64,000 nucleotides of DNA from Gemmatimonadota bacterium. Its GTDB lineage: Bacteria; Gemmatimonadota; Gemmatimonadetes; Gemmatimonadales; GWC2-71-9. Position numbers and translations under genes: made by a program. A model generated the notes under the pieces. The model made no database searches. It worked only from the letters and a program-made list of their open reading frames with translations, and had not been told where the DNA came from. The DNA lies in the NCBI GenBank assembly GCA_041477065.1, contig JBGOUQ010000001.1, forward strand, positions 77,258 to 141,257, given 5' to 3'. Shown one piece after another: positions 13,579 to 28,159 of the stretch (position 1 is its first letter; each line of letters begins with the position of its first letter).

Positions 13579-13582
13579 GGAC

Positions 13583-14055: not shown

Positions 14056-14059
14056 GGAG

Positions 14060-14989
14060 CTACGCCGACACCTTATCCAGCACCATCAGCGTGAACAGGG
14101 CCGGCAGATAGAGGATGGACACGAAGAAGACGCGCCAGGCGGCGCGCGGCGTCGCGGCCCGGAGCAGCGGCGTCCCGACCCCGGCGTAGACGATGCCGAG
14201 CGCCAGGGCGCCGAAGAAGTAGAGCGCTCCCGTCAGTCCCAGCAGCGAGGGTACCAGGCTGACCGGCAGCAGCGCCACGGCGTAGAGCAACATCATTCGC
14301 GCGGTGCGGGAGCCGTCCGCGTCCTCGACGCTCAGCATGGCGAGGCCGCCGCGGCGGTAATCCTCGCGGTAGATCCAGGCGAGGGCGAGGAAGTGCGGGA
14401 GCTGCCACAGGAACATGATCCAGAACAACGCGAGCACGACGACCCCTAGCTCCCCGCCCGCAGCGGTCCATCCGCCCACGATGGGGAGCGCGCCGGGCAC
14501 GGCGCCGATCAGCGTGTTGAGCGAGGTGCGGCGCTTGAGCGGCGTATAGAGGCCGACGTAGCTCACGAGCGTGAGTGCTGCGAGCCCCGCGGTGAGCAGG
14601 TTCACCAGCGCGGCGAGGTAGGCGACGCCGGCCAGCGATATCGCGCTCGCGAAAATTCCGGCGGCACGCGGCGTGAGCCGGCCCGAGGGGAGCGGCCGGC
14701 CGCGCGTGCGCAGCATCCGGGCGTCGACGTCGCGCTCGCCCAGCTGATTGAAGGCGTTGGTGCCGCCCGCCACGAGCGCGGTGCCGACGAGCGTGTGCAG
14801 CAGCAGCACGAGCCGCACGCCGTCCACCGAGCCGAGGTAGAACCCGGCAGCGGCGGTGAGCAGCACCAGCTGGGTGATGCGCGGCTTGGTCAACTCGAGA
14901 AAAGCTACCAGATGTGCTCCGTGATGACGGCCAGGATGAGGATCGCCGCCAGCGGCAGCGGGATGATGAACAGGATTCTCAGGTTCCAC
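14060..14989 (-). CDS. ctaB: Protohaem IX farnesyltransferase (haem O synthase)
   Basis: C-terminal part of track ORF 14060..15919. FLELTKPRITQLVL..., GTNAFNQLGERDVDARMLRTRGRPLPSG, WQLPHFLALAW. Start is uncertain: GTG 14989 is the nearest canonical start, and the only alternative is a CTG at 14911. Confidence 0.8.
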   Translation of the reverse strand: MEPENPVHHPAAAGGDPHPGRHHGAHLVAFLELTKPRITQLVLLTAAAGFYLGSVDGVRLVLLLHTLVGTALVAGGTNAFNQLGERDVDARMLRTRGRPLPSGRLTPRAAGIFASAISLAGVAYLAALVNLLTAGLAALTLVSYVGLYTPLKRRTSLNTLIGAVPGALPIVGGWTAAGGELGVVVLALFWIMFLWQLPHFLALAWIYREDYRRGGLAMLSVEDADGSRTARMMLLYAVALLPVSLVPSLLGLTGALYFFGALALGIVYAGVGTPLLRAATPRAAWRVFFVSILYLPALFTLMVLDKVSA

Positions 14990-15180
14990 TTCTCGAATTT
15001 CAAGTGCATGAAGTACATGGCGACGAGGAGCGCCTTCCAGATCGCCAGGAACATGAGCAGGACCAGCTTCAGGTTCCGGGAGATCGGCAGCTCGAAGGCG
15101 AGGCCGAGCTCCAGCGCCGTGAGGACGGCCAGGTAGACCCAGATGAGGATGTAGTTGGGATGCTTGTGGGCGGTGTCCAT
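14905..15180 (-). CDS. Cytochrome c oxidase subunit IV (prokaryotic COX4 type)
   Basis: 91 aa, three hydrophobic helices, N-terminal HKHPNYILIWVYLAVLTALE typical of bacterial subunit IV. Follows subunit III. Confidence 0.75.
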   Translation of the reverse strand: MDTAHKHPNYILIWVYLAVLTALELGLAFELPISRNLKLVLLMFLAIWKALLVAMYFMHLKFEKWNLRILFIIPLPLAAILILAVITEHIW

Positions 15181-15186
15181 GGGTCC

Positions 15187-15867
15187 TCAGATCAGGTAGA
15201 CGATCGTGAAGAGGATGATCCAGACCAGGTCCACGAAGTGCCAGTACAGCCCCACGACTTCGACGCCGGCGTGGTCGTCTTTCGTGTACTTCCCGGGCAG
15301 CACCCGGGTGATGTAGAGGTAGAGCATCGAGATCACGCCGCAGGTGACGTGAAACCCGTGGAAGCCCGTCATGGTGAAGAAGGTCGAGCCGTAGAGCCCC
15401 GCGATCGTCTGCCCGTAGACGATGGGATTGGCCGCCGCCAGCTCGGCCAGCTCGCTGCCGTCGCGGAATCCGCTGGGCAGGAAGCCGTGGCGGATCAGGT
15501 GCGTGTACTCGTAGACCTGCACGCCCACGAACGCCGCGCCGCCGAGGATGGTGAGGCCGAACCACATTCGCAGCCCCTTTTGATCGCCGTGGGAGATGGC
15601 GGCGTAGGCTTTCACCATCGAGACCGACGAGCAGATCAGCAGGAACGTATTGAAAGCGGTGACCGGAATGTTCAGCACCTTGCCGGGCAGCGCCCACTCT
15701 GCGGGCGCCCCGAAACGCAAGATTACGTACGACCCGATCAGCGCCGTGAAGAACATGATTTCCGACGCCAGGAATACCCACATCCCCAGCTTCTTGTTGT
15801 AGACGTCCACCCCGCGCTCGGCCGGGAACGGCGGGCGCATGGCGGAAACAACCGCGGCGTGCGTCAT
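15187..15867 (-). CDS. ctaE: Cytochrome c oxidase subunit III
   Basis: 226 aa polytopic protein with the subunit III-like C-terminus GLYWHFVDLVWIILFTIVYL. Confidence 0.9.
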   Translation of the reverse strand: MTHAAVVSAMRPPFPAERGVDVYNKKLGMWVFLASEIMFFTALIGSYVILRFGAPAEWALPGKVLNIPVTAFNTFLLICSSVSMVKAYAAISHGDQKGLRMWFGLTILGGAAFVGVQVYEYTHLIRHGFLPSGFRDGSELAELAAANPIVYGQTIAGLYGSTFFTMTGFHGFHVTCGVISMLYLYITRVLPGKYTKDDHAGVEVVGLYWHFVDLVWIILFTIVYLI

Positions 15868-15884
15868 GGTCGGTCCTTTCGGCG

Positions 15885-17651
15885 TCAGTCGCCCGCGGCC
15901 GGCGCCAGCACCGGCTCACGGTCGGTCGGGAGCTTGCGGGTCTGCGGCAGGTAGTCCTCCGCGACCTCGGGGGAGCTGAATTCGTAGGGCCCGCGGTATA
16001 CCGTCGGCGGCTTTTCCCAGTTGCCGTGCGGGGCGGGGTTGGGGAGCGTCCATTCCAATCCGTTGTCGTCCCAGGGATTGGCCGGGGCTTTCTTGCCGCG
16101 GAACAGGCTGCCCACGAAGTTCACGATGAAGATGATCTGCGTGGCGAACAACAGGAACGCGCTGATCGAAATGAACTGGTTCAGGGGCTGGTAGGGCTTT
16201 AGGAAGTCGTACTGCGTCGGGTCGTAGATCCGGCGCATCGCCCCCCCCATACCGAGGATGTGCATCGGGAAGAACGTGGCGTTATAGAACAGGAACGTGA
16301 GCCAGAAGTGGATCTTGCCCCAGCGCTCGCTCATCATCCGCCCGAACATCTTGGGATACCAATAGGTGAACGCGCCGAACAGCGCGAACAGGCTGCCGCC
16401 GAACAGCACGTAGTGGATGTGCGCGACGATGAAGTAGGTGTCGTGAATGAACATGTCGAGCGGCGTCGCGGCCATGTAGATGCCCGAGAGCCCGCCGATC
16501 ACGAACATCGAGACGAACCCCACCGCGTTCATCATGGGCACGTGGAAGCGCAGGTTGCCGCGCCACATCGTGCCCATCCAGTTGAACGTCTTGATCGCCG
16601 AGGGCACCGCGATCGCCAGCGTCGATACCATGAAAGTGGAGCCGAGCGTCGGGTTCATCCCGCTCACGAACATGTGGTGGCCCCACACGATCCAGCCGAG
16701 GAAGGCGATCGCGACGATCGCGAACACCATCGAGTGGTAGCCGAAGATCGGCTTGCGCGAGCCGTTGGAGATGATATCGGAGACCATCCCCATCGCGGGG
16801 AGGATGAGGATGTAGACCTCGGGGTGCCCGAAGAACCAGAACAAGTGCTGCCACAGCAGCGCCTGGCCGCCGGCGGCGGGATCGAAGAAGTGGGTGCCGA
16901 TGGTCTGGTCGAACAGCAGCATGATCCCCGCGCCCGACAGCACCGGCAGCGCGAGCAGGCCGAGGATAGCCGTGATGAACAGCGCCCAGACCGAGAGCGG
17001 CATCCGGAACCACGTCATCCCGGGCGCGCGGTTGTTGATGATGGTGGTGATGTAGTTCAGCGACCCGAGAATCGACGACAGGCCGAGCACCACGATTGAA
17101 AGGCACCACAGGATCTGGCCGGTGGAGACGCCCGAGTACTCCGCACTCGCCGACAGCGGGGCATACATCGTCCACCCGGCGCGCGAGGGGCCGTCCGGCA
17201 CGAAGAAACCGGCCAGCATGATCATGCCGGCCAAGAACGCCGCCCAGAACGACGCCATGTTGATGCGCGGGAAGGCCATGTCGTGGGCGCCGATCTTGAG
17301 CGGGATCAGGAAGTTGGCGTAGACCCCGACGAGCAGCGGCATGATGGCGAAGAACACCATGAACGTGCCGTGCATCGTCACCAGCTGGATGTAGTACTCG
17401 GGCAGGATCACCCCGCCCGGGGCCATCGTCTCGGGCAGGATCCCGCCGCCCGGCATCGGCCTGCCGGGAAAGCCCAGCTGCCAGCGGATCTGCATCGCGA
17501 GGATCCCACCCACCAGCAGGAAGAACAGGCTGACGAACAGGAACTGGATTCCGATGATCTTGTGATCGGTCGAGAAGATGTACTTGCGCCAGAAGCTCGT
17601 CGGCCCATGGCCGGCGTGCGGCATAGCATGCGGCGCGGCGGCGGTGGTCAT
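15885..17651 (-). CDS. ctaD: Cytochrome c oxidase subunit I (haem-copper oxidase, A-type)
   Basis: Track ORF 15885..17684; ATG 17651 overlaps the ctaC stop (ATGA). WFFGHPEVYILILPAMG, WGHHMFVSG, HDTYFIVAHIHYVLFGG. Confidence 0.95.
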   Translation of the reverse strand: MTTAAAPHAMPHAGHGPTSFWRKYIFSTDHKIIGIQFLFVSLFFLLVGGILAMQIRWQLGFPGRPMPGGGILPETMAPGGVILPEYYIQLVTMHGTFMVFFAIMPLLVGVYANFLIPLKIGAHDMAFPRINMASFWAAFLAGMIMLAGFFVPDGPSRAGWTMYAPLSASAEYSGVSTGQILWCLSIVVLGLSSILGSLNYITTIINNRAPGMTWFRMPLSVWALFITAILGLLALPVLSGAGIMLLFDQTIGTHFFDPAAGGQALLWQHLFWFFGHPEVYILILPAMGMVSDIISNGSRKPIFGYHSMVFAIVAIAFLGWIVWGHHMFVSGMNPTLGSTFMVSTLAIAVPSAIKTFNWMGTMWRGNLRFHVPMMNAVGFVSMFVIGGLSGIYMAATPLDMFIHDTYFIVAHIHYVLFGGSLFALFGAFTYWYPKMFGRMMSERWGKIHFWLTFLFYNATFFPMHILGMGGAMRRIYDPTQYDFLKPYQPLNQFISISAFLLFATQIIFIVNFVGSLFRGKKAPANPWDDNGLEWTLPNPAPHGNWEKPPTVYRGPYEFSSPEVAEDYLPQTRKLPTDREPVLAPAAGD

Positions 17652-18319
17652 GAGCCGGCTCCCTCCTGGGTGGCCTTCATCCACGCGTCAAAGTCCGCTT
17701 GCGTGTGCACGGTGACTCGCGCCCGCATCTTGTAGTGCCCCATCCCGCACAGCTGCGAGCAGCCGAGCTCGAAGTCACCCGTCACCGTCGCCTGGAACCA
17801 GGCTTTGATGTCCATGCCCGGCACCACGTCCTGGCGCACGCGCAGCTGCGGCACGAAGAAGGAGTGGATCACGTCTTCGGACGACAGGTGGACCTCGATC
17901 GGCCGCCCGACGGGGACGTGCAGCTGGTTGCGCACCGTGAAATCGTCGGCGGTGCCGAGCTTGCCGTCCGCCCCCGGGTAGGTGATCCGCCACTCGAACT
18001 GCTTCGCGTGAATCCCGATCGGGTACGCGTTCGGCGGCACGCTGTTGCGGCCTTTGATCTGCACCCAGTAGTGGTTGCTGAACAGCCCGAGCACCACCAC
18101 GGTCACCGCCGGGATCGTCGTCCAGATCACTTCGGCGCGGTTGTTCCCATGCGTGTAGTAGGCTTTCCGGCCAGGGCGCTGGCGATACCGGAAGATGAAC
18201 CAGATCAATCCGGCCTCGACCACGACGAAGGCGATCCCGGTGATGATCAGAATCGCGACGAACAACCCGTCGATAGGCTTGGCGAACGTCGACGCCTGTA
18301 GCGGCAGCCACCAGTGCAT
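17648..18319 (-). CDS. ctaC: Cytochrome c oxidase subunit II (CuA; no fused cytochrome c domain)
   Basis: C-terminal 223 aa of track ORF 17648..18889; ATG 18319. Two TM helices, then VIHSFFVPQLRVRQD and the CuA motif CSQLCGMGHYKM. Confidence 0.9.
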   Translation of the reverse strand: MHWWLPLQASTFAKPIDGLFVAILIITGIAFVVVEAGLIWFIFRYRQRPGRKAYYTHGNNRAEVIWTTIPAVTVVVLGLFSNHYWVQIKGRNSVPPNAYPIGIHAKQFEWRITYPGADGKLGTADDFTVRNQLHVPVGRPIEVHLSSEDVIHSFFVPQLRVRQDVVPGMDIKAWFQATVTGDFELGCSQLCGMGHYKMRARVTVHTQADFDAWMKATQEGAGS

Positions 18320-18330
18320 CGCGGTCTCCC

Positions 18331-19068
18331 TTAGTGGGCGGCGAAGGTGAAGTCCTGCGACTTCGAGCCGCCGGCGGTGACGGTCACCGTCGCGGTCTGC
18401 AAGCCGTACTTCTCGTGCCACGCCTCGATGGTGTACGTGCCGGGCGGCAGACCCTTGATGGTATAGCTGCCGTCCGCGCCGCTCACCGCGAAATAGGGGT
18501 GCGGCAGCACGCCCGCCCAGGCGTGCATCCAGCCGTGCACGTTGCACTCGAGCGGCACCATCACCTCGGGCGCGCTGAACGTCCGGTCGCTCGTCATCAC
18601 GCTCGGCTGGCTGATGTTGAAGGGCCGGTTCTTCACGCCCTTCGCCTTGATGTTGTGGAGAATGCCGTCGGAGTTCTTGATCTGCATGGTCTGGCCCACC
18701 TGGATGCCGAACACGTGCGGATGATATCGACAGCCGTCCTGATCGAGCACCACCGGCGTCGCCGGCGTGGGATAGGTGCCGCCCGCCGGCAGGCCCGCCT
18801 TCACGTAGACGAAGACGTTCGCGAGCGTGCCGTTGGGGTTCACCACGACCATTTCCTCGTGCGGCGTCGCGGTGTACTTGGCCTTGCACTTGGCTTCCTC
18901 GCTCATGTCGATGGCCGGCATGGCGGGCTTGGTCCCCGTGAACTTCACCTTCCCCGTGATCGTCGCGCCGCCCTGAGACACCTCGTCCGACCCACCCCGC
19001 CCCGCCATGCCCAGCGCCGCCGCGCCCGCCAGCATCGTCACCGCCACTAGTCCGAGCTTACGCATCAT
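18331..19068 (-). CDS. Secreted cupredoxin (type-1 copper) with C-terminal CarboxypepD_reg-like beta-sandwich
   Basis: Track ORF 18331..19116; ATGATG at 19068 follows GGAGG. Signal peptide. Candidate Cu ligands GILHNIK ... ECNVHGWMHAW (C-x2-H-x2-M). C-terminal GADGSYTIKGLPPGTYTIEAWH. Confidence 0.65.
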   Translation of the reverse strand: MMRKLGLVAVTMLAGAAALGMAGRGGSDEVSQGGATITGKVKFTGTKPAMPAIDMSEEAKCKAKYTATPHEEMVVVNPNGTLANVFVYVKAGLPAGGTYPTPATPVVLDQDGCRYHPHVFGIQVGQTMQIKNSDGILHNIKAKGVKNRPFNISQPSVMTSDRTFSAPEVMVPLECNVHGWMHAWAGVLPHPYFAVSGADGSYTIKGLPPGTYTIEAWHEKYGLQTATVTVTAGGSKSQDFTFAAH

Positions 19069-19084
19069 GCCTCCTGTGAGAAGC

Positions 19085-20698
19085 TCACATGCCTGCCGAT
19101 CGACGCCCTGACGCACTCCCCTTGGGTCGTTGGGCCCGCCACACGACCATCAGGCCGAGGCCCAACGTAAGCACCATCGCGACCACGGGTGAAACGTAGA
19201 CCCGGGCGGGAGTGGGTTGATCGAGGGCGAGGAAATACCACGTGCTGACGGCCATTCGCGAGCCGGACTCCCCGTTCGACCCGTCCTGCGCGAAGAACGC
19301 CACGGGGATCGCGCGGCCCGTGCGGAACACAAGCTGGTTCGCCGTATCGGTCGTCGCAAGAGCGCGCGAGAGCACCAGCCGCCACTCCCCCTGGTCATAC
19401 ACCGCCTGGGCCGCCGGAGCCGCAGCGGCGGGAAACGCATCGAAGCGCTCGAGCCCGCGCGCCAGCCCCGCCACCGCCCCGCGCGGGGAGCTGGTCCAGC
19501 GCCACTGGTAGACCGGTTGCGTCGCCGCCCCCATCAGGAAATAGGGCCGCTCCATCCCTTCCGGGATCGCAACCGGGAACTGCACGATCAGCTGGTCGGG
19601 CCACGGTTGCGGCGCCGGCTTCGCCGAGTCGTCGCTCACCATGGTGCTGAGCACGCGCCGCTGGAACGGGAGCCACGTGGTGTCGGGGCTTTGCGACCGG
19701 TCGTCCCAGCTGAGTCGCAGCGCGATCACCGACCCGTTGTGGACCGCCTGCACCCACACGCCGCTCACCGCGGGCGCGAACCAACGCGGCTTGCGGATCA
19801 CCTGGCCTACGAGCGGGAACCAGTAACGCGCGACGCCGTGCCAGGCCGAATCGTCCGGGGCGAGCGGCAGCGCGCCCGCCATCTGCGGGGCGTGGATCAC
19901 GTCCCGCACTTCGGGCGCCGCCTCCGGCGACAGGCTGCGGACGTATTGCGCCACGCGCCACAGCTGCTCCTCGGTGAGCCACTTCTGGTCGATGAGGTCG
20001 CTGAACGACGGCATCGGGCTACCGTCGAGCCCGGTCCGCAGGCGGTGGTAGATGTCCTCCGCCGTGGCGCCGCCGCGGAAGCGCCAGCTCTGGTGCAGGT
20101 CGGCCGCGAAGATCGGGAAGTCGGCGTCGTCCTTGAGCGTCGGCGCCGACGGGCCGTTGCCGCGGCCCTGCATGCCGTGGCACTTCCGGCACCCGATGGA
20201 ATCGTAGAACTGGCGGCCGACTTTCAGCGCGTCCACCCCGGTCCCGCCCCCGGGGGCGGAGCCGAAGGTAAGCGGCGTCGCGTGCTGGCTGGTATCGGTG
20301 AAGAAGGCTGAGAACGTCTTCAGATACGCGATCACATCCCGCCGCCCGCCGTCGGAGAGTCGCGTCTTCCACGCCGGCATCGCGGTCCCGGGCAGTCCCT
20401 CGTCGATGGCGCGCATCAAGTCGGCGTCCGTCGGCAGCTGCCCGCTCGCGGTCGAGCGGATCTTGTAGACGGCGCCTGTGAAGTTGCGCGGCTGCGGCAG
20501 CATGGTCACCGCCCCCGGCCCGTCTCCTGCCCCGGCGTCGCCGTGACAGCCGGCGCACCATTTCACGTAGACGGCCTTGCCGCGAGTGGTGTCCTGGGCG
20601 GAGAGTTGGAAGGTTGGAAGGAGGGAAAGCAGCGCCCCCACTGCCAGGCCTAACCCCCTGCCAACTGTCCAACGTTCCGCCCTTGCTCCCGGCTTCAC
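19085..20698 (-). CDS. Dihaem cytochrome c fused to an ethylbenzene-dehydrogenase-type (EB_dh) haem-b domain, with a C-terminal TM anchor
   Basis: C-terminal 537 aa of track ORF 19085..21406; GTG 20698 overlaps the upstream stop (GTGA). Haem motifs WCAGCHGD and GCRKCHGM. EB_dh-like VQAVHNGSVIALRLSWDD, LIVQFPVAIPEGMERPYFLMG...VYQWRW, GEWRLVLSRAL. Terminal helix VVAMVLTLGLGLMVVW. Confidence 0.8.
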   Translation of the reverse strand: MKPGARAERWTVGRGLGLAVGALLSLLPTFQLSAQDTTRGKAVYVKWCAGCHGDAGAGDGPGAVTMLPQPRNFTGAVYKIRSTASGQLPTDADLMRAIDEGLPGTAMPAWKTRLSDGGRRDVIAYLKTFSAFFTDTSQHATPLTFGSAPGGGTGVDALKVGRQFYDSIGCRKCHGMQGRGNGPSAPTLKDDADFPIFAADLHQSWRFRGGATAEDIYHRLRTGLDGSPMPSFSDLIDQKWLTEEQLWRVAQYVRSLSPEAAPEVRDVIHAPQMAGALPLAPDDSAWHGVARYWFPLVGQVIRKPRWFAPAVSGVWVQAVHNGSVIALRLSWDDRSQSPDTTWLPFQRRVLSTMVSDDSAKPAPQPWPDQLIVQFPVAIPEGMERPYFLMGAATQPVYQWRWTSSPRGAVAGLARGLERFDAFPAAAAPAAQAVYDQGEWRLVLSRALATTDTANQLVFRTGRAIPVAFFAQDGSNGESGSRMAVSTWYFLALDQPTPARVYVSPVVAMVLTLGLGLMVVWRAQRPKGSASGRRSAGM

Positions 20699-21507
20699 TT
20701 CGCCCCCCCTTCCGCTTTCTCCCACGTGCGCGGTTTCCACCCGGTCTGATCGTACAGGAACGTGATCACCGACCAGATCTCCCGCTCGGTGAGGAAGTCT
20801 TCCCACTGCGGCATCGCCGAATTCCACGGCGTGCCCTCGCGCGGCAGGCCGGGCCCGCCCTTGGCGATGCGCCAGAAGACGAAGCTCTCGGTCAGCTGCG
20901 CGATCGTGCCGTTGTCCTGGAAATTGGCGGGTAGCGGGTTGAATCCCGCCGCGAAGTGCCCCAGGCCGTCGAGGTGGTCGCCGTGACAGGGGAGGCAGTT
21001 CTGGTAATAGACGCGCTTGCCCTCCGCGACGTAGGCGGGCAGCGAATCGGCGTGGGCGCGCAGCGGGTTTTCGAGCCCCGTGAGGGTGATCGTCTTGCCG
21101 CGAAAGGTGATTTCCGTCGGCGGCGCCGGATGGATCGAGCGCAGGTTGGGGGGCGCCTGGACGGTGGCCTTCACCTGGCCGTAGGTGACGAACCCGACCA
21201 GCGCGGGGAGCACCACCAGGCCCGCGAGGCGGACCGGTTTCAGGCGCGGCTGCACCAGCGCGGCGGTGATCGGCTCCTTGAAGCGGGTCCAGCGCTCCTC
21301 GCTGTCGCTCACGTAGATCAGCACGCCGACCAGCACCGTGGCCATGTACTGCAGCACGACGCTCGCCGGGACGATCGCGCTCCCAGGAAGCGCGGGGATA
21401 CCCCACTCGATCACCACGAAGGCGAGGACGAGGATCGCGACCGCCTGCCAGAACGGATGGCTGCTGAAGCGACGGACGCCGGTGGTCGAGGACGTGGTCG
21501 CCATCAT
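20695..21507 (-). CDS. Membrane-anchored monohaem cytochrome c
   Basis: Two N-terminal hydrophobic helices, then NCLPCHGD and ...SAMPQWEDFLTEREIWSVITFLY. ATGA overlap with the upstream gene. Confidence 0.8.
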   Translation of the reverse strand: MMATTSSTTGVRRFSSHPFWQAVAILVLAFVVIEWGIPALPGSAIVPASVVLQYMATVLVGVLIYVSDSEERWTRFKEPITAALVQPRLKPVRLAGLVVLPALVGFVTYGQVKATVQAPPNLRSIHPAPPTEITFRGKTITLTGLENPLRAHADSLPAYVAEGKRVYYQNCLPCHGDHLDGLGHFAAGFNPLPANFQDNGTIAQLTESFVFWRIAKGGPGLPREGTPWNSAMPQWEDFLTEREIWSVITFLYDQTGWKPRTWEKAEGGAK

Positions 21508-22295
21508 TTGTGGCTCGCCAGGAACTGGGCGAGTGCTTCGAGCTGGGCGGCGTTCATCATCGTGCCGAAGGTCTTGGGCATGATCCCCGCCATCCGCTCG
21601 TAGCCCTTGGCGATCGACGAGGCCGGGTCGAGGATTTTGTGGCGGATCGACTCCGCGCTGCGGCGCGCGCCGACGTGCGTCAGGTCGGGCGCGATCTGGC
21701 CGCCGGCGCTGCCCAGCTTGTGACAGCCGAGGCAGCCGCCGGCGTTGAGGATCGCCATCGGGTCGGTGCTCCCGTCCGCGAACGCCGGGCTCGACCCTGG
21801 GCTCGCGCCCGGGGCTGGGGAGGCTTGCGCCGGAATGTCGGCGCCGGTGACGTCCACCGTGCCGCCCTGGGATTCCAAAAATGCGATGATCGCCCAGATC
21901 TGGGCGGGTGAGAGCTGCTTGGTCATCACGGGCATGATCGGCTGGTAGCCCGAGACGACGTAGGCGGTCGGATTGTCGAGCGACTCGAACAGGTACTGCT
22001 TACAGGTCTTGCCGGACTCGCGCTTGCCGCAGCGCGCGCCGATCGACCCGCTGCCCTTCTCGTCGGTGAGCAGGTTGGGCGCCCGGGTACCGAGCCCGTG
22101 GCAAGCGACGCAGCCACCGCCCCCGTTGAACAACTTCTCGCCGGCGGCGACCAGCTGTTCGGGCGTCACGTTCGCGCCCAGCGACAGCGCCTGGGGCACC
22201 TCCGACTGCACCTGGGGGATCTTGTTGGCGATGAGGGTATAGAGCGCCAGCGTGCCCAGCACCACGCCCACGATCTTGAGGTTAGTGACCCACAT
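21504..22295 (-). CDS. Membrane-anchored dihaem cytochrome c
   Basis: Track ORF 21504..22358; ATG 22295 (MWVTNLKIVGVVLGTLALYTLIA). Haem motifs GGGCVACHG and GGCLGCHK. Overlaps the 3' end of the CydA-like gene by 14 nt. Confidence 0.8.
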   Translation of the reverse strand: MWVTNLKIVGVVLGTLALYTLIANKIPQVQSEVPQALSLGANVTPEQLVAAGEKLFNGGGGCVACHGLGTRAPNLLTDEKGSGSIGARCGKRESGKTCKQYLFESLDNPTAYVVSGYQPIMPVMTKQLSPAQIWAIIAFLESQGGTVDVTGADIPAQASPAPGASPGSSPAFADGSTDPMAILNAGGCLGCHKLGSAGGQIAPDLTHVGARRSAESIRHKILDPASSIAKGYERMAGIMPKTFGTMMNAAQLEALAQFLASHK

Positions 22296-23994
22296 GCGGC
22301 GCCTCCCCTCCCCCCTTACCTGTGGGCACGTACGTCGATTTCTCGGCGAGCCCGCCAAGCCAGAACACGAAGGCGACGAGCGAGAGGAAGATCAGCACGC
22401 ACAGGCTGATCATGCGGGACGCGTAGCCCAGGGCGGGCGTCGCCGCGTACGGGCTGGTGTCCTGGACCACCTGCCACACGTGCCAGTGCTGGCGGATGCC
22501 GCTGCGGGCGAAGCCCATCAACCCCATCAGCCACGTGAACGTGACGGCGAGCACGAATAGGGCGTACTGCGAGCGCGCCGGCATCTTGCCCCACTGAATG
22601 GTGCCCAGCGATTGCGCCCCGCGCGCCATCAGGATGTCGATGATCGTGACGAACAGGATGCAGGCGAGCACCGCGCCGACCTGGTAGACGCTGAACCCGA
22701 TGCGGACGATCGCCTCCACGAAGTAGCCGCGAATCCCGAAGAACAGCACCACCGCGGCGGCCAACACGAACATCGCGGCCTGCACCAGCGTGCCCGTCCG
22801 TGCCCAGGGGACGACGGGCCGCTTGTTGGCGCGGCGGTACATGAGGAAGGAGAGGAACGTCGTCAGGATCATCAGGTTCACGGCGGTGTTCTTGGCGCTC
22901 ATGACGCCGAGGGCGCCCAGCAGCGGGTGGTGCGAGCCGCCCATCGCGCCGAGCTCTTTGGAGTCGGCGATCATCGTGTGCGGCGTGCCCCAGACCAGCG
23001 CGCCCAGCACCAGCACGATCAGCAAGTACTTGGTGTAGGGCCGGAACCGCTCGGCTCCGGGGATGCGGCCCATGCCGATCCACAGATAGTAGTTGCCGGC
23101 GAGAAACAGCACGGCGATCAGGAACGCCTGAATCACCCACAGCCAGCTCATGAAGCCGCCCATCATCGTGATGCCCATGGACTGGTCGTACTGGTAGATC
23201 TCGCGGCCCAGCCAGTAGCCGGCGAACGGCAGCACGATGAGCGCCGAGATCGCGATGAAGTTCCCGACGTAGCCCATCCAGTCGTAGTGGGCGCGCTCCT
23301 CGTCCGTCTTCGCCGCGAGGAAGCGGTAGCTCGCATACGCGCCCACGATCGCGCCGCCGAAGACGACGTTGGCGATGAGCCGGTGGATGTTGATCGGCAT
23401 CCACGTCGCGTTGGCGATCGCGTGCCACAACTTGATGGAGGCTGGGTCGGTGGTGGGCGTGATGTCGCGCGGCGGGGACATCATATACGTGAGCCACGCG
23501 TTCGCGATGAGCATCACGATCGTGCCCCACACGTTGAGCAGGATGCCGAGGGTCCAGTGGCCCCACTTGGCCCGGCCCGTCTTCCAGCGGTCCCACCCGT
23601 AGTAATAGAGGTACAGGGTGAAGGACTCGACGAAGAACAGGCCGGCGTAGAGCCACATCGACGGCCCGAACACCGCCGTGAGGTAGGCCCAGAAGCGCGG
23701 GTACAGGGTGGACAGGAAGAAGGTCAGCACCGCCCCCCAGATCGCCGTCGCGCTGTAGGCGACGAGGAGCAGCCGCGTGAACTCCTTGCTCAGCCGGTCG
23801 TATTTCTGGTCCTTCCCGAAGATGCCGATCGCCTCGGTGACCACCGCGAACATCGGCACGCCGAGCACGAACGCCGCGAACATCAGGTGGACCTCGGCCG
23901 CGATCCAGACCGCCGCGCGCGCCCCGATGACGGGGAATTCGCCGTAGGCGCGGGAGGTGTCCGCCGCCGCTTGGAGCAGGAAGAGAGGCGTCAT
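22282..23994 (-). CDS. CydA-like (cytochrome bd subunit I family) polytopic membrane protein; no CydB partner, no long Q-loop
   Basis: 570 aa with ~13-14 hydrophobic segments. The N-terminal third aligns by eye with E. coli CydA: EVHLMFAAFVLG (His19-equivalent), FFVESFTLYLYYYGWDR (Glu99-equivalent), MLIANAWLTYMMSP, and PINIHRLIANV (His186-equivalent). Confidence 0.8.
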   Translation of the reverse strand: MTPLFLLQAAADTSRAYGEFPVIGARAAVWIAAEVHLMFAAFVLGVPMFAVVTEAIGIFGKDQKYDRLSKEFTRLLLVAYSATAIWGAVLTFFLSTLYPRFWAYLTAVFGPSMWLYAGLFFVESFTLYLYYYGWDRWKTGRAKWGHWTLGILLNVWGTIVMLIANAWLTYMMSPPRDITPTTDPASIKLWHAIANATWMPINIHRLIANVVFGGAIVGAYASYRFLAAKTDEERAHYDWMGYVGNFIAISALIVLPFAGYWLGREIYQYDQSMGITMMGGFMSWLWVIQAFLIAVLFLAGNYYLWIGMGRIPGAERFRPYTKYLLIVLVLGALVWGTPHTMIADSKELGAMGGSHHPLLGALGVMSAKNTAVNLMILTTFLSFLMYRRANKRPVVPWARTGTLVQAAMFVLAAAVVLFFGIRGYFVEAIVRIGFSVYQVGAVLACILFVTIIDILMARGAQSLGTIQWGKMPARSQYALFVLAVTFTWLMGLMGFARSGIRQHWHVWQVVQDTSPYAATPALGYASRMISLCVLIFLSLVAFVFWLGGLAEKSTYVPTGKGGGEAPHVGH

Positions 23995-24004
23995 CCGTTC
24001 TCCG

Positions 24005-25282
24005 TCATCCGTTGTCCGTCACGAAAAACGGCTTGCGCTTGGAAAAATCGATCGGCATGGCCGCGCGGACCTCGGCCAGCAGCTCCGGCGTGATCTCCCG
24101 TCGCCCCTGCCGCCGGGCCCACTCCTCCACCCGCCCCATCACCACGCCGCGCACGAACGAGGGGATCCCCGCGACCCGCGCCCGCGCCGCCTCCGTCCAC
24201 ACCAGCGCCGGCGTGAACTCCGCCCCGTACGTGACCGGCCGCAGCCGCTCGATGAGGGGCCGATCGCCGGTCGGCTCGTAAACGCACGATGGATCGGCGG
24301 CGAGCACGTCCCCCTCGATGGCGAGCGCCCGGGCGCGGCACCCGCCGCACAGCGCGCGGTACTCGCAGCGGCCGCACTTGCCTCCCAAGGTCCCTTCCCG
24401 CAGTCGCCGCAGGAGCGGCGAGGCGCGCCACACCTCGGCGAACGAGCGCTCGACCAGGTCCCCCGCCACCTCGGGCATGTAGGGACAGGGGGTCAGCTTG
24501 CCGTCCGGCGTGATGCGACAGTACTGGGTGCCGCACGGGCAGCGTGTTTCGTAGTTCAGGATCGGCGACTCGGGGTCGAGCTGGTGCACGTGCCGCATGA
24601 AGTGCGGCGCGCACTTGGCGCGGACCAGCATCCGGCCGCGGTAGTCCCGCTGCCAGCGGGCGAGGTCGGCGAGGACCGCCTCGTAGTCGGCCGGCGCGAG
24701 ATCCGACAGCGCGGCGCCGCGCCCGGTCGCCACCAGGAAATAGCAGTTGAAGGCGACCGCCCCTTGCTCAGCCGCCCACGCGGCGAGCTGCTCGAGCTCG
24801 GCGCGGTTGCCTTTGGTCGCCGTCGTCTGGACGATGAAGTCAAGCCGCGCGGCGGAGAGCCGCGCCAGGGCCGCCGTCGTCTCGGCGAGCGAGCCTTTGC
24901 CGTGCCGGAAGTTGTCGTGGTAGCTGGGCCGCAGCGAGTCGACGCTCACCGCCACGCCGCGCACGCCGGCGTCCTTCAGGGCGGCGATGCGGTCGGCGCT
25001 CAACATCGTCCCGTTGGTTCCCACCACCACCGTCGCGCCCCGCTCCGCGCCGTGCGCCGCGAGCCGGCACAGGTCCTCGCGCAGCAGCGGCTCGCCGCCC
25101 GACAGGATGATCAGCGGGGCGGGGCTGACCTCCAGGATCTCGTCGAGGATGCGGAGGCACTGGGCAGTGTCCAGCTCACCGGTCGCCGTCTCGTTGGGCC
25201 CGGCGGAGATGTAGCAGTGGGCGCACTCGAGATTGCAGCGCCGCGTGAGGTTCCAGGCTACGACGTGCGGGACGAAGTCCAC
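24005..25282 (-). CDS. Radical SAM / SPASM-domain enzyme (NirJ/AhbD-like) with a C-terminal PCP_red-like domain
   Basis: C-terminal 425 aa of track ORF 24005..25759; GTG 25282 lies 2 nt after the upstream stop. CNLECAHCY radical-SAM cluster motif, SPASM-type GKCGRCEYRALCGGCRARA, and C-terminal VWTEAARARVAGIPSFVRGVV. Confidence 0.85.
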   Translation of the reverse strand: MDFVPHVVAWNLTRRCNLECAHCYISAGPNETATGELDTAQCLRILDEILEVSPAPLIILSGGEPLLREDLCRLAAHGAERGATVVVGTNGTMLSADRIAALKDAGVRGVAVSVDSLRPSYHDNFRHGKGSLAETTAALARLSAARLDFIVQTTATKGNRAELEQLAAWAAEQGAVAFNCYFLVATGRGAALSDLAPADYEAVLADLARWQRDYRGRMLVRAKCAPHFMRHVHQLDPESPILNYETRCPCGTQYCRITPDGKLTPCPYMPEVAGDLVERSFAEVWRASPLLRRLREGTLGGKCGRCEYRALCGGCRARALAIEGDVLAADPSCVYEPTGDRPLIERLRPVTYGAEFTPALVWTEAARARVAGIPSFVRGVVMGRVEEWARRQGRREITPELLAEVRAAMPIDFSKRKPFFVTDNG

Positions 25283-25284
25283 GG

Positions 25285-27273
25285 TCAGCCGCCCGCCTGC
25301 TCCTGGAGGAGCCGCTCCACCGCCGCCTTCGCCTCCTCCGGCTTCACCCCGGCGAAGTCCACGGGGCACTTGTCCATTTTCTCCTCGATGTCCCGGATCG
25401 GGCAGCGGGTGATGCCCTGCGCCTTCGCCTCCTCGATGAACGCGCGCATCTCGGGCGACAGCGCGTCTTTCCCCTCCGCCTCGGCACGGATCTGCTTGGC
25501 CCGCAGCTCGGTGAACATCACCATCATCGTCTCGACATCGAATTCGTCGGCCTCGATCATCGCCTGTTTGTTTTCGTCCATCACCCGCGTGGTGACGCGC
25601 CAGATCGCGTGGTTGCGGGCGAAGCGCTCCACCGTGTTCCGCGCCAGCGGCCGCGCGATCAGCGGGACGAGCTGCAGCCGCTGCCACCCCTCCTCGGTCC
25701 ACACGATCGGGTCGGTCGCGACCCGCGGGCGCTTGGACACCACCCCCGTCACGGGACACTTCACCTCGACTTCCGGGGACAGGGACTCGGGATCGGCGTC
25801 ATGCCCCTGCACCTTCGTCGCCTTCATCTGCTCCTGAGCCTTCACCTCGGCGAGTACGATCTCCTCGGCGCTCCCGATCCCCATGATCAGCTGCATGTGA
25901 GTGGGCAGCAGCTTCTGGATCGCCTCGTCGAGCCACCTGTTGGTGATCGTCAATCCAGGCTCCCCGCTGTGCTCCAGAGCGTATTCCTCGACCGCGCGCC
26001 GAGCGATCCCCTGCGCGAACGGCGGCACGCGCAGGATCCGAACTTCGGCCTCCGGCGCCCACGGCAGCCCCGCCTGGCCGTCCTCTTCGATCCACGGAAT
26101 GTCTTCGGGCCGGATCCCCACCGTGCCGGCGAGCAGCAGGTTGCACGGCGCGAGCCGAATCAGGTTCTCGGCCTGGGAGCCCAGGTCCGTGCCTTCGATG
26201 CGGTGCGCGCCGTGGCGCGCCACGACGAGCAGCGACGGCTTGATCTCCTCGGCCCACTGCATGATCACCTGGAACGGCTTGCCGATTAGGATCTGCGTCG
26301 TGAGCGGGACGTCGGGATACTCCCGCGCCATCACCTCAGCGCGCTTCAGGTTCGCCTGGCACAGCTTGAGCAACCCCTTGTCGATGATGTTGTTATGCAG
26401 CTCCTCCTGCTCCTCGAACTTGAACACCTTCGAGGCCTGGTAGGAGAGCACGTCCTTGATGTTGTGGAAGACGACGTGGTGATACTCAACGTCGAACGCG
26501 CTGCAGGCGAAGACCGAGCCGCCGAAGGCGTGAGCCAGCTCGAGCGCGGCCTTCATCGCTTTGTAGCCGTAGGACGACCCGTCCACGCAGACCTGGAAGC
26601 GCCCACCTTCCAGGGGCCGATCGTCGCGGACGATGAGCACGTCCTTCTCGATGCCGCGCAGGGCGCGGGCCACCACTCCACCGAGCTGCGAGTAGGGCTG
26701 TCGGCCCAAGCCGTGAGCCCCGATTGCGACGAGATCGTACTGGCGACCGGAGCTGCCCACGAGCCGGGCGGCGCTGTCTTCTTCCTCCGCCACGAGACGG
26801 CCGTTCTCCCCGACCTGCACGTCCCCGCGCACCTTGTCGCCGCCGTCGTAGCCGGCGGCCCGGTTGGGGTCGAAGCCGATCAGTCCGGGGAGGCGGCCGG
26901 CGCCGCGGTTCACTTCGTTGACGATCTCTTCGTAATTGATGCCCTCGAGGAGCTGCCGGGTCAGCGCCACGCCGGCCGCTTCGCATTTCTTGCCGAGCTG
27001 GTCGAGGAAGCTGTCGGCGATCAGCTGCAGCCCCTTCTCGATCAACTTGTCGTGGATCTTGCGCTGGCGTTTGATCTCGTCGGGGGTCTGGAACTGCGCG
27101 GGGAGGCCGGTCTCGAGTTGGCGGAAGCGGACATCGTGGAGTCGGGCGGCGTAGACATGGTTGCCGGTGATGCGCCCGCCGGAGCGACGACACAACTCGA
27201 TGGCCCGTCCGACGGCCCAATCCGAGTGCTGCGAGTTGTCGACAGGTACGAAAACCTCGCGATACACCGGCAC
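25285..27273 (-). CDS. Tandem universal-stress-protein (USP) domains followed by two PCP_red-like domains and an acidic/Cys-containing tail
   Basis: GTG start after GGGAGG. USP motifs VFVPVDNSQHS...LVAIGAHGLG...VLIVR and FQVCVDGSSYG...LLVVARHGAHR...NLLLAG. Then LPWAPEAEVRILRVPPFAQGIARR and IVWTEEGWQRLQLVPLIARPLARN. Confidence 0.75.
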   Translation of the reverse strand: MPVYREVFVPVDNSQHSDWAVGRAIELCRRSGGRITGNHVYAARLHDVRFRQLETGLPAQFQTPDEIKRQRKIHDKLIEKGLQLIADSFLDQLGKKCEAAGVALTRQLLEGINYEEIVNEVNRGAGRLPGLIGFDPNRAAGYDGGDKVRGDVQVGENGRLVAEEEDSAARLVGSSGRQYDLVAIGAHGLGRQPYSQLGGVVARALRGIEKDVLIVRDDRPLEGGRFQVCVDGSSYGYKAMKAALELAHAFGGSVFACSAFDVEYHHVVFHNIKDVLSYQASKVFKFEEQEELHNNIIDKGLLKLCQANLKRAEVMAREYPDVPLTTQILIGKPFQVIMQWAEEIKPSLLVVARHGAHRIEGTDLGSQAENLIRLAPCNLLLAGTVGIRPEDIPWIEEDGQAGLPWAPEAEVRILRVPPFAQGIARRAVEEYALEHSGEPGLTITNRWLDEAIQKLLPTHMQLIMGIGSAEEIVLAEVKAQEQMKATKVQGHDADPESLSPEVEVKCPVTGVVSKRPRVATDPIVWTEEGWQRLQLVPLIARPLARNTVERFARNHAIWRVTTRVMDENKQAMIEADEFDVETMMVMFTELRAKQIRAEAEGKDALSPEMRAFIEEAKAQGITRCPIRDIEEKMDKCPVDFAGVKPEEAKAAVERLLQEQAGG

Positions 27274-28158: not shown

Positions 28159-28159
28159 A

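What the first reader, a model, noticed from the sequence alone, without database searches (positions are those of the whole stretch)
18331..22295. Five c-haems, an EB_dh-type haem-b domain and a cupredoxin inserted between the bd-like gene and the aa3 oxidase genes
Four genes follow the CydA-like gene on the same strand:
- a membrane-anchored dihaem cytochrome c (21504-22295);
- a membrane-anchored monohaem cytochrome c (20695-21507);
- a dihaem cytochrome c fused to an ethylbenzene-dehydrogenase gamma-subunit-type domain with a C-terminal anchor (19085-20698);
- a type-1 copper protein (18331-19068).

ctaC/D/E/IV and ctaB follow. Junctions are a 14-nt overlap, ATGA, GTGA, then gaps of 16 and 11 nt.

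The CtaC here has no fused cytochrome c domain, so the oxidase needs an external donor. No bc1 or alternative complex III genes lie in the window.

Inference: this is a dedicated membrane-attached electron wire. The CydA-like module may donate to or receive electrons from the same cytochrome c/cupredoxin pool as the aa3 oxidase. That could amount to a non-canonical replacement for complex III, or a branched terminal segment.
Basis: partly seen in the sequence, partly recalled or inferred. Interest (0 to 1): 0.65.

Follow-up and report, generated by a model that had tools for sequence, protein, structure and literature searches.

The report
Bd-like cytochrome module beside aa3 oxidase
The four genes, together with the CydA-like gene, are a known but biochemically uncharacterised "bd-like" respiratory module (five haem c, an EB_dh domain, a blue-copper protein) that the phylum Gemmatimonadota keeps next to a conventional aa3 oxidase in one tightly packed gene string; whether it is a second oxygen reductase or a stand-in for complex III remains open.

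Summary
Coordinates, the five CxxCH motifs, the EB_dh domain, the type-1 copper fold and ligands, the gene junctions and the CtaC without a cytochrome c domain were all verified.

The word "inserted" is wrong. CydA-like + dihaem c + monohaem c + dihaem-c/EB_dh + cupredoxin is one conserved module, the OR-N2 "bd-like" type:
- It matches the OR-N2 signature residues published by Murali et al. 2021.
- The same module occurs without any cta genes in the fetched flanks in Myxococcota and Fibrobacterota.
- In other lineages the dihaem cytochrome is fused to the CydA-like protein.
- The same gene set, and the "alternative complex III" idea, were published for Nitrospira, Nitrospina and anammox bacteria (Lücker 2013).

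What I did not find in the searchable literature is the context. In 75 Gemmatimonadota loci the order rSAM–cydA-like–c2–c1–c2/EB_dh–cupredoxin–ctaCDEF is practically invariant, and it also occurs in one Chloroflexi MAG.

The mechanism is unresolved. I favour a cytochrome c/cupredoxin-fed bd-like O2 reductase sharing its periplasmic electron pool with aa3 (about 0.4). The rival is a menaquinol:cytochrome c/cupredoxin oxidoreductase feeding aa3 (about 0.3). It would answer the reported scarcity of bc1 and ACIII in this phylum.

The parts
22282..23994 (-). CydA-like membrane subunit, OR-N2 type (570 aa, 13 predicted long helices, no CydB gene beside it)
   Evidence: Pfam PF01654 matches residues 25-271 only. 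PDB CydA alignments give H36 = E. coli H19, Y116 = E99, E123 = E107 and H204 = H186. By spacing from the published OR-N2 table, H146 = H126, S498 = E445 and W504 = W441. These residues are invariant or nearly so in 81 sequences. The AF2 model has pLDDT 88 and its best PDB matches are CydA chains.
21504..22295 (-). Dihaem cytochrome c with an N-terminal TM anchor (c2A), Kustd1711-like
   Evidence: Two CxxCH motifs (C62, C188) with M121 invariant (71/71) and M239 in 69/71. PDB 7zs0_A (Kustd1711) matches at E 3e-19; its haems are about +350 mV (PMC11791136). The gene overlaps cydA-like by 14 nt. A homologous domain is fused to CydA-like in P0242, P0245 and P0253.
20695..21507 (-). Monohaem cytochrome c with three N-terminal TM helices (c1)
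   Evidence: One CxxCH (C171); M232 and H126 are invariant. Pfam Cytochrome_CBB3 / Cytochrom_C. ATGA overlap with c2A.
19085..20698 (-). Apparent signal peptide + dihaem cytochrome c + EB_dh (DMSO-reductase type II gamma-like) domain + C-terminal TM (c2EB; the 'alt-NxrC'-type architecture)
   Evidence: Pfam EB_dh and two cytochrome c domains. NCBIfam TIGR03477 at 92 bits, below its cutoff. PDB 6h5l_B dihaem cytochrome at E 7e-48 and EbdC 2ivf_C at E 2e-8. TM at 502-520. GTGA overlap with c1. The signal peptide is my reading of the N-terminal sequence.
18331..19068 (-). Type-1 copper cupredoxin domain that appears to be inserted in a CarboxypepD_reg beta-sandwich, with an N-terminal signal or anchor
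   Evidence: AF2 model. Foldseek matches amicyanin, plastocyanin and pseudoazurin. H138, C175, H178 and M181 are invariant, as are C61 and C113. Pfam CarboxypepD_reg covers residues 194-241. The domain-insertion reading is inferred from that partial Pfam match.
14060..18319 (-). aa3-type haem-copper oxidase genes: ctaC (17648-18319), ctaD (15885-17651), ctaE (15187-15867), ctaIV (14905-15180) and haem O synthase ctaB (14060-14893)
   Evidence: Pfam COX2, COX1, COX3, COX4_pro and UbiA. NCBIfam CoxB is above its cutoff. Start codons checked.
24005..27273 (-). Co-conserved upstream genes: USP-USP-PCP_red protein (25285-27273) and an AhbD/NirJ2-like radical SAM/SPASM-PCP_red protein (24005-25282)
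   Evidence: Pfam and NCBIfam. Present in 56/56 and 72/73 Gemmatimonadota loci. Also found beside the bd-like module in L085, where no cta genes are nearby. The gaps are 2 and 10 nt.

Best explanation
Layer 1 (my confidence about 0.85). Genes 18331-23994 encode one membrane complex of the OR-N2 / 'TO_1' bd-like type.
- A 13-helix CydA-like subunit keeps the haem b558 ligands and the His of the high-spin haem site. It lacks the Q-loop, the counterparts of E. coli E99 and E445, and a CydB partner.
- A periplasmic arm carries five His/Met c-haems on three membrane-tethered proteins, an EB_dh domain and a type-1 copper protein.
- In Gemmatimonadota this module sits in a fixed, tightly packed gene string with an aa3 oxidase, haem O synthase and haem-synthesis or maturation genes.

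Layer 2 (mechanism, inferred; about 0.4, which is the confidence given for the whole statement). The bd-like complex is a second O2 reductase that does not use quinol.
- Electrons from the periplasmic cytochrome c pool enter through the c-haems, the EB_dh domain and the T1 Cu.
- They reach haem b558 at the periplasmic face, beside the conserved loop 336-364 (TPH...E...HH).
- They then reach the His36-ligated haem, where O2 is reduced with protons delivered through the retained E123/H146 channel.
- The same tethered carriers, at about +350 mV in the solved homologue, can also reduce CuA of the neighbouring aa3 oxidase, whose CtaC has no cytochrome c domain.
- The gene string would thus encode a branched terminal segment with two oxidases sharing one donor wire.

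Shown: gene content, motifs, folds, synteny, fusions.
Inferred: cofactor occupancy, direction of electron flow, O2 chemistry, co-transcription.
For: Module identity:
- OR-N2 signature residues are met.
- Murali et al. describe OR-N2 operons as 'multiple cytochromes c and an ebdC homologue'.
- Mundinger 2019, Lücker 2013 and Yu 2022 describe the same gene set in Nitrospira, Nitrospina, Kuenenia and Manganitrophus. It is highly expressed there.
- c2A is homologous to Kustd1711 of the Kuenenia nxr cluster.

Unity of the module:
- It is found with no cta genes in the fetched flanks in L082, L085 and L092.
- c2A-like domains are fused to CydA-like in P0242, P0245 and P0253.
- The genes overlap.

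Link to aa3: the order is invariant in 75 Gemmatimonadota loci and occurs in Chloroflexi L084.

O2-reductase reading:
- The H19, H186, M393, E107 and H126 equivalents are conserved.
- Other OR-N subfamilies sit downstream of ACIII or pet genes, in the position usually taken by an oxidase. Some Nitrospirales carry no other oxidase (PMC12342949).
- Current literature treats OR-N as a putative cytochrome c-oxidising O2 reductase (PMC10839748).
- A tetrapyrrole-type radical SAM gene travels with the module.
Against: - The counterparts of E. coli E99 and E445, which hold the haem d/b595 pair, are Tyr and Ser here.
- According to the literature read, the homologous module is conserved in strictly anaerobic anammox bacteria.
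- Two terminal oxidases in one phylum-wide conserved gene string would be unusual.
- If both oxidases need cytochrome c, a quinol:cytochrome c oxidoreductase is still required. bc1 and ACIII are reported in only 23% and <10% of Gemmatimonadota genomes.
- No biochemical or structural data exist for any OR-N enzyme.
Confidence: 0.4

Rival explanations
1. Complex III substitute. The CydA-like subunit oxidises menaquinol at a newly evolved periplasmic site next to haem b558, in loop 336-364 with its conserved His and Glu. Electrons pass through the c-haems, the EB_dh domain and the T1 Cu to CuA of the aa3 oxidase encoded downstream. In nitrite oxidisers and anammox bacteria the same module would run in reverse.
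For: - The gene position resembles act-cox and qcr-cta arrangements: the module lies directly upstream of ctaCDEF in 56/56 loci.
- CtaC lacks a cytochrome c domain.
- No bc1 or ACIII gene was found in the window. No ActB-like or >=4-haem ORF occurs in any of 92 locus flanks.
- Zheng 2022 reports petB in 23%, ACIII in <10% and caa3-type oxidase in 74% of 326 Gemmatimonadota genomes. The authors suggest novel complex III modules may exist.
- The module's conservation in anaerobic anammox bacteria, as reported in the literature, argues against an obligatory O2 function.
Against: - The Q-loop and all known quinol-binding residues are absent. I found no recognisable quinone site.
- Related OR-N clusters bring their own quinone-reactive modules: petAB, ACIII, or a cytochrome b in L090. 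This implies the CydA-like protein itself does not react with quinol.
- The module is self-contained, with no haem-copper oxidase in the fetched flanks, in L082, L085 and L092.
- The KEGG-based ACIII census on MAGs is unreliable.
- Whole genomes could not be searched here.
Confidence: 0.3
2. Periplasmic-donor entry module. The EB_dh domain acts, like NxrC or EbdC, as the docking and haem subunit for a soluble periplasmic dehydrogenase encoded elsewhere. The cytochromes and the cupredoxin relay those electrons to aa3. The CydA-like protein serves only as a haem-b membrane anchor.
For: - EB_dh homology to the gamma subunits of type II DMSO-reductase enzymes.
- In nitrite oxidisers the homologue is called an alternative NxrC and has been proposed as the NXR anchor.
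Against: - No molybdoenzyme gene was found in the window or noticed in the locus annotations I read.
- The EbdC-type haem ligand positions are not conserved.
- The proton-channel and haem-site residues of the CydA-like protein are strictly conserved, which a passive anchor would not require.
Confidence: 0.1
3. One reading: the four genes are an aa3-specific electron wire inserted between two otherwise independent enzymes.
For: The cupredoxin gene lies 11 nt upstream of ctaC, and CtaC lacks its own cytochrome c domain.
Against: - The four genes co-occur with the CydA-like gene, in the same order, where no cta genes are in the fetched flanks (L082 twice, L085, L092).
- There are fusions with CydA-like.
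- The published OR-N2 and nxr-cluster gene sets contain the same components.
Confidence: 0.05

Closest known systems
OR-N2 subfamily of the cytochrome bd superfamily (Murali, Gennis & Hemp 2021), equivalent to the 'bd-like oxidase' TO_1-type clusters of Nitrospirota and Ca. Manganitrophus
   Same: - A long CydA-like protein without a Q-loop.
- The residue signature H, Y, E, Y, Y, H, H, S, W at the tabulated positions.
- An operon with several cytochromes c and an EbdC-like subunit.
- No second cydA-like gene is needed.
- The family has been recorded in Gemmatimonadota.
   Different: - This protein lacks the N-terminal extension (an extra TM or signal) of the Nitrospira reference. It has 13 predicted helices rather than 14.
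- It sits in one gene string with an A-type haem-copper oxidase and in a non-nitrifying lineage.
nxr-associated gene set of Kuenenia, Nitrospira and Nitrospina: bd-like protein + mono- and dihaem cytochrome c + alternative NxrC + cupredoxin-like proteins (Lücker 2010/2013; Mundinger 2019)
   Same: - The same five component types.
- c2A is a sequence homologue of Kustd1711 (E 3e-19).
- The alt-NxrC architecture matches: two haem c motifs + EB_dh + TM.
   Different: - No NXR, TorD-like chaperone or zinc-finger protein was found here; the neighbour is aa3 instead.
- The organism is presumably a heterotroph, so 'reverse electron transport from nitrite' does not apply.
Canonical cytochrome bd quinol oxidase (CydAB[X])
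   Same: - The fold of the CydA core (Foldseek TM about 0.45-0.57).
- The haem b558 His and Met ligands, the H19 equivalent, and E107/H126 of the proton channel.
   Different: - No CydB gene beside it, no Q-loop, and E99 and E445 replaced.
- By my reading of the model, two extra helix pairs.
- Dedicated c-type cytochromes and a copper protein.
ACIII-caa3 and bcc-aa3 gene clusters or supercomplexes; the Acidithiobacillus rus operon and Sulfolobus SoxM (the last two from my own knowledge)
   Same: - A multihaem or cupredoxin electron-transfer set is encoded directly upstream of, or within, an aa3-type oxidase operon.
- A membrane-tethered blue-copper protein acts as donor to CuA.
   Different: - No Rieske protein, cytochrome b, or NrfD-like or FeS subunits.
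- The membrane subunit belongs to the bd superfamily.
- A complex III-like function is only a hypothesis here.

Membership tests
Cytochrome bd superfamily, OR-N2 subfamily | CydA four-helix core with the His ligand of the active-site haem (E. coli H19) | tested here: met
   H36 aligns to H21 of G. thermodenitrificans CydA. It is His in 79/81 sequences; the other two have gaps.
Cytochrome bd superfamily, OR-N2 subfamily | Haem b558 ligands (H186 and M393 equivalents) | tested here: met
   H204 aligns to the His of PDB 9r2g_A and is invariant. M365 in 'GVMSAKN' has the M/N spacing of OR-N2 M430/N434 and is nearly invariant. The Met was assigned by motif spacing, not by a structural alignment.
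Cytochrome bd superfamily, OR-N2 subfamily | OR-N2 pattern at the proton-channel and haem-site positions: Y(E99), E(E107), Y/Y(F114/F116), H(H126), S/A(E445), W(W441) | tested here: met
   Y116, E123, Y130, Y132, H146, S498 and W504 have the same spacing as in the reference table. They are invariant in 81 sequences, except S498 at 78/81. OR-N1 differs at the E107 equivalent (G), so OR-N2 fits better.
Cytochrome bd superfamily, OR-N2 subfamily | No Q-loop or quinol-binding site; extra TM helices in its place; about 14 TM helices | tested here: met
   CydA profile and PDB alignments stop at about residue 270. The model shows helices 283-310 and 318-335 where the Q-loop would begin, and 13 long helices in all. 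The 14th helix of other members is an N-terminal extension that is absent here. K252 and E257 equivalents were not individually mapped.
Cytochrome bd superfamily, OR-N2 subfamily | Operon with several cytochromes c and an EbdC homologue | tested here: met
Cytochrome bd superfamily, OR-N2 subfamily | O2 reductase activity with cytochrome c as donor | not testable with these tools
   This has not been demonstrated for any OR-N enzyme. No OR-N structure appeared among the PDB matches.
Type-1 (blue) copper cupredoxin | Cupredoxin beta-sandwich fold | tested here: met
   The model has pLDDT 84. Amicyanin, plastocyanin and pseudoazurin match at TM about 0.66-0.74 normalised to the target.
Type-1 (blue) copper cupredoxin | Ligand set His ... 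Cys-x2-His-x2-Met | tested here: met
   H138, C175, H178 and M181 are invariant in 60 sequences. In the Fibrobacterota relative the Met position is Glu. Copper binding itself is not testable here.
EB_dh / type II DMSO-reductase gamma subunit (haem b) | EB_dh domain homology | tested here: met
   Pfam scores 47.8 bits against a cutoff of 33.3. EbdC 2ivf_C matches at E 2e-8. NCBIfam TIGR03477 scores 92 bits, below its cutoff of 170.
EB_dh / type II DMSO-reductase gamma subunit (haem b) | Met/Lys axial ligands of haem b (EbdC M108 and K201; ligand identity from my own knowledge) | tested here: not met
   M108 aligns to M389, but K201 aligns to M482. Across 65 homologues position 389 is Met in 36 and Gly in 18, and position 482 is Gly in 34 and Met in 15. 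Haem b may be bound differently or not at all.
Class I c-type cytochromes | CxxCH plus a distal Met | tested here: met
   Five CxxCH motifs are invariant. M121, M232, M107 and M229 are invariant and M239 is Met in 69/71. The solved homologues are Kustd1711 and the dihaem cytochrome chain B of PDB 6h5l.
Complex III analogues (bc1/b6f; ACIII) | Rieske + cytochrome b, or ActB (FeS) + ActC (NrfD-like) + pentahaem ActA | tested here: not met
   None of these domains occurs in the cluster or in the window ORFs scanned. No FeS-rich or >=4-haem ORF occurs in 92 loci. The module is not a member of these families; functional analogy remains a hypothesis.
A-family haem-copper oxidase (aa3) | Subunits I-IV with a CuA-bearing subunit II | tested here: met
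   Pfam COX1, COX2, COX3 and COX4_pro. NCBIfam CoxB scores 159.5 against a cutoff of 147.7. CtaD scores 643.8, just under its cutoff of 670.75.

The most novel reading that the evidence does not exclude
The OR-N2 bd-like module is the 'missing' quinol:cytochrome c/cupredoxin oxidoreductase of Gemmatimonadota. This would be a third, evolutionarily independent kind of complex III, built on a cytochrome bd scaffold. It would be hard-wired to an aa3 oxidase, possibly as a supercomplex. The same machine would run backwards in nitrite oxidisers and anammox bacteria.
Probability: 0.3. Interest if true: 0.85.

Novelty: new member of a known kind. Interest (0 to 1): 0.5.

Why it matters
The bd-like (OR-N) proteins have been called enigmatic since the first Nitrospira genome. 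They are among the most highly expressed genes of nitrite- and manganese-oxidising bacteria, yet no activity, cofactor content or structure is known.

This window shows the same module in an abundant soil heterotroph lineage, with more than 8000 close homologues in the protein database. There it sits beside a conventional aa3 oxidase in one tightly packed gene string rather than beside nitrite oxidoreductase. That context has three consequences:
- It separates the module's function from nitrite oxidation.
- It gives a concrete candidate for the quinol-to-cytochrome c step that genome surveys fail to find in most Gemmatimonadota.
- It offers a simpler physiological setting in which to test whether the module is an oxidase or a complex III substitute.

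If the module is only a second oxidase, the finding is an ordinary, though strikingly conserved, respiratory gene cluster.

Tried and rejected
- A 19-sequence alignment of distant CydA-like proteins (A2) was too divergent for the genome scan. The 11-sequence A3 worked. Absence of cultured species from the list therefore means nothing.
- Contexts of distant relatives: the Manganitrophaceae/Nitrospira P0391 sits alone beside a NuoF-like gene, and P0281 has no respiratory neighbours. Both were uninformative.
- I tried to use the EbdC Met/Lys ligands as proof of haem b. The positions are not conserved.
- Promoter and terminator scan: one promoter-like site upstream of the USP gene, at 27461-27433 on the minus strand. 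The terminator-like hits fall inside coding sequence. This is not evidence for or against a single transcript.
- A crude search for ACIII in the flanks of 92 loci (FeS motifs, >=4 CxxCH) found nothing, but the flanks are only 10 kb at most.
- Model coordinates are not exposed. Haem-site geometry and the position of the extra conserved His residues could only be inferred from secondary structure and the canonical CydA topology.
- No paper in the searchable library contains both 'Gemmatimonad*' and 'bd-like'.
- Rejected: an aa3-specific inserted wire, and membership of bc1 or ACIII.

Full report
**Source and layout**

The window has about 68% GC. Its proteins are 84-95% identical to proteins of soil Gemmatimonadales MAGs. 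One MAG contig (GCA_041493565.1) carries an identical cupredoxin and the same gene order.

On the minus strand a tightly packed string runs from 27273 to 14060:
- USP-USP-PCP_red protein
- AhbD/NirJ2-like radical SAM/SPASM-PCP_red protein
- CydA-like protein
- dihaem cytochrome c (c2A)
- monohaem cytochrome c (c1)
- dihaem cytochrome c + EB_dh (c2EB)
- cupredoxin
- ctaC, ctaD, ctaE, ctaIV, ctaB

Upstream lie a ferredoxin, a small PCP_red protein and an Mrp/NUBPL ATPase. Downstream lie two small membrane ORFs, a HemQ-Rieske fusion and genes I read as hemE, hemH and hemY (hemY was Pfam-checked; hemE and hemH were identified by eye).

**Check of the observation**

- CxxCH counts are 2, 1 and 2.
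- EB_dh scores above Pfam's gathering threshold.
- The junctions are a 14-nt overlap, ATGA, GTGA, then 16 nt and 11 nt. In addition, ctaC/ctaD overlap by ATGA, and only 10 and 2 nt separate the two upstream genes.
- Pfam does not see the cupredoxin. An AlphaFold model (pLDDT 84) matches amicyanin, plastocyanin and pseudoazurin.
- H138, C175, H178 and M181 are invariant in 60 homologues.
- From the partial Pfam match and my reading of the N-terminal strand, the copper domain appears to be inserted into a CarboxypepD_reg beta-sandwich.
- CtaC is 223 aa and has no haem motif. Its CuA motif was read by eye from the translation.

Three details need correcting:
- c1 has three N-terminal TM helices.
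- c2EB appears to have a cleavable signal peptide and only a C-terminal anchor.
- The EbdC haem-b ligand positions align to M389 and M482. They vary across the family (Met or Gly). A haem b in the EB_dh domain is therefore plausible but not shown.

No bc1, ACIII or molybdoenzyme gene was found among the window ORFs that I translated or scanned.

**What it is**

The CydA-like protein belongs to the OR-N2 subfamily defined by Murali, Gennis and Hemp.
- Alignments to solved CydA chains and the published residue table give H36 (= E. coli H19), Y116 (E99), E123 (E107), Y130/Y132, H146 (H126), H204 (H186), M365 (M393), S498 (E445) and W504 (W441), with the right spacing.
- These residues are invariant or nearly so in 81 sequences.
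- The model (pLDDT 88) has 13 long helices. Reading it against the canonical CydA topology (my own knowledge), I take these as the nine canonical helices plus two inserted pairs. One pair occupies the place of the Q-loop.
- The best PDB matches are CydA chains only.

The same paper states that OR-N2 operons typically contain several cytochromes c and an EbdC homologue, with an unknown donor that is probably cytochrome c.

Earlier genome papers describe the same set in Kuenenia, Nitrospira and Nitrospina: a bd-like protein with 14 TM helices, a mono- and a dihaem cytochrome c, an alternative NxrC with two haem motifs and a TM helix, and cupredoxin-like proteins.
- It ranks among the 40 most transcribed genes of N. 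moscoviensis.
- As TO_1 it is at the 98th expression percentile in Ca. Manganitrophus.

Direct sequence links to solved proteins:
- c2A is homologous to Kustd1711, the dihaem cytochrome of the Kuenenia nxr cluster, whose two haems titrate at about +350 mV.
- The dihaem part of c2EB matches chain B of PDB 6h5l, an anammox dihaem cytochrome (E 7e-48). I believe this is Kustc0457, the partner of an HAO-like enzyme, but that identification is from my own knowledge.

**The four genes belong to the CydA-like gene, not to aa3**

A scan of one genome per species returned 80 loci. I located homologues of the window's proteins in them by tblastn.
- In 75 Gemmatimonadota loci (Gemmatimonadales, Longimicrobiales, Palauibacter) the order is the same wherever the contig reaches far enough.
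- The counts are: c2A 65/65, c1 63/63, c2EB 59/59, cupredoxin 55/56, ctaC 56/56, ctaD 53/53, ctaE 52/52, radical SAM 72/73 and USP 56/56.
- A Chloroflexi MAG (L084) has cydA-like-c2A-c1-c2EB-cupredoxin-ctaCDE.
- A Myxococcota contig (L082) has two divergent copies of the five-gene module and no cta gene in the 10-kb flanks.
- A Nannocystaceae contig (L085) has the five genes followed by the radical SAM and USP genes.
- A Fibrobacterota contig (L092) has a 35%-identical CydA-like gene with cytochromes, a c2EB homologue and a 31%-identical cupredoxin-like protein. No haem-copper oxidase lies in the 8-kb flanks.
- In three representatives of other lineages a c2A-like cytochrome domain is fused to the C-terminus of the CydA-like protein.

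The five genes are therefore one unit, with the cupredoxin as its usual last gene. The aa3 genes are an optional neighbour that Gemmatimonadota have fixed.

**How it may work**

What can be said with confidence:
- All redox domains other than the CydA-like subunit are periplasmic and membrane-tethered.
- All c-haems have His/Met ligation.
- The one solved homologue is at +350 mV.
- A T1 Cu centre is a high-potential carrier.
- The only haem sites retained in the membrane subunit are b558 (His/Met) and one His-ligated site, together with E123 and H146 of the proton channel.
- By my reading of the topology, a conserved periplasmic loop (336-364, TPH...E...HH) precedes the b558 Met ligand. A second conserved motif (RQHWHVW, 501-507) follows the position of E445. 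Neither has a canonical counterpart.

Reading A, which I prefer at about 0.4: the complex is a cytochrome c/cupredoxin-fed O2 reductase, and the gene string encodes a branched terminal segment with aa3.
- This agrees with the current view of OR-N enzymes.
- Other OR-N subfamilies sit downstream of ACIII or pet genes, in the place where oxidases usually sit.
- Some Nitrospirales have no other oxidase.
- Related clusters bring a separate cytochrome b for quinone chemistry (L090 here, and TO_2).

Reading B, at about 0.3: the complex oxidises menaquinol and feeds aa3, acting as a complex III substitute.
- It is favoured by operon logic.
- CtaC lacks its own cytochrome c domain.
- The literature reports the module as conserved in strictly anaerobic anammox bacteria.
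- A survey of 326 Gemmatimonadota genomes found petB in 23%, ACIII in <10% and caa3-type oxidase in 74%. Its authors suspected novel complex III modules.
- Against it stand the lack of any recognisable quinol site and the unreliability of that census.

A donor-docking role of the EB_dh domain (about 0.1) and an aa3-specific inserted wire (about 0.05) are less likely.

**Novelty**

The module and the 'alternative complex III' idea are published (Lücker 2013; Murali 2021). OR-N is already tabulated for Gemmatimonadota.

I did not find the phylum-wide juxtaposition with aa3 described. I also did not find its co-conservation with an AhbD/NirJ-like radical SAM enzyme and PCP_red/USP proteins described. 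No paper in the searchable library contains both 'Gemmatimonad*' and 'bd-like', though that library covers open-access literature only.

I file the finding as a new member of a known, functionally unresolved kind. The interest is moderate. A specialist would recognise the module at once. The new context does make the old question, oxidase or quinone-linked module, more directly testable.

Noticed in passing
window 24005-29074 (-); also L085 and L082:15534-16445: A set of Mrp/NUBPL ATPase, small PCP_red protein, ferredoxin, USP-USP-PCP_red protein and an AhbD/NirJ2-like radical SAM/SPASM enzyme with a C-terminal PCP_red domain lies upstream of the bd-like module. It is conserved there in nearly all Gemmatimonadota loci. 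Parts of it also sit next to the module in Myxococcota contigs that have no cta genes nearby. It may be an O2-independent haem synthesis, modification or insertion system dedicated to the complex.
   Followed up: partly
window 12475-13632 (-) and 9516-12533 (-): A chlorite-dismutase-type HemQ is fused to a Rieske [2Fe-2S] domain. It is followed by genes I read as hemE, hemH and hemY (coproporphyrin-dependent haem pathway), directly downstream of the oxidase genes. HemQ homologues occur at the same place in many related loci.
   Followed up: partly
window 13867-14055 (-): A 62-aa ORF that looks like a two-helix membrane protein follows ctaB. It has no Pfam match but has homologues in 39 related loci, including the Chloroflexi locus L084. 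It may be an unannotated small subunit or assembly factor of the oxidase cluster.
   Followed up: partly
window 22282-23994 (-), residues 336-364 and 500-507: The CydA-like protein carries extra conserved histidines in loops that have no counterpart in canonical CydA and that I read as periplasmic. H356 and H505 are invariant; H339, H355 and H503 are mostly conserved. They could form the copper site once proposed for Nitrospira bd-like proteins, a docking site, or a quinol site.
   Followed up: partly
L090 (UOGE01000106.1, hydrothermal-vent bin labelled NITROSPINAE02), 6851-18424: The cluster holds a bd-like/cytochrome c fusion, two MrpD-like antiporter subunits, a cytochrome c/EB_dh protein, a dihaem cytochrome c and a cytochrome b. 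This is the 'TO_2' architecture that Yu et al. reported as unique to Ca. Manganitrophaceae.
   Followed up: no
window 47087-50314: A dihaem cytochrome c (47087-47851, -) and a BON-domain protein lie next to three plus-strand genes: a membrane protein without a Pfam match (48586-49332), a weak DUF2214 membrane protein (49308-49847) and a small Rieske protein whose N-terminus looks like a TAT signal (49871-50314). There is no cytochrome b, so this is not bc1. The function is unknown.
   Followed up: partly
window 579-3164 (+): Three tandem paralogous YceI-domain proteins (about 250-300 aa) share a conserved WWQ(I/V)DPHY.HLW.T.CP motif. They lie next to a TonB-dependent receptor gene.
   Followed up: no
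L028, L029, L063 (upstream of the Mrp gene): Some Gemmatimonadota loci carry a second, divergent haem-copper oxidase gene set (36-45% identity to ctaC/D/E) immediately upstream of the conserved cluster.
   Followed up: no
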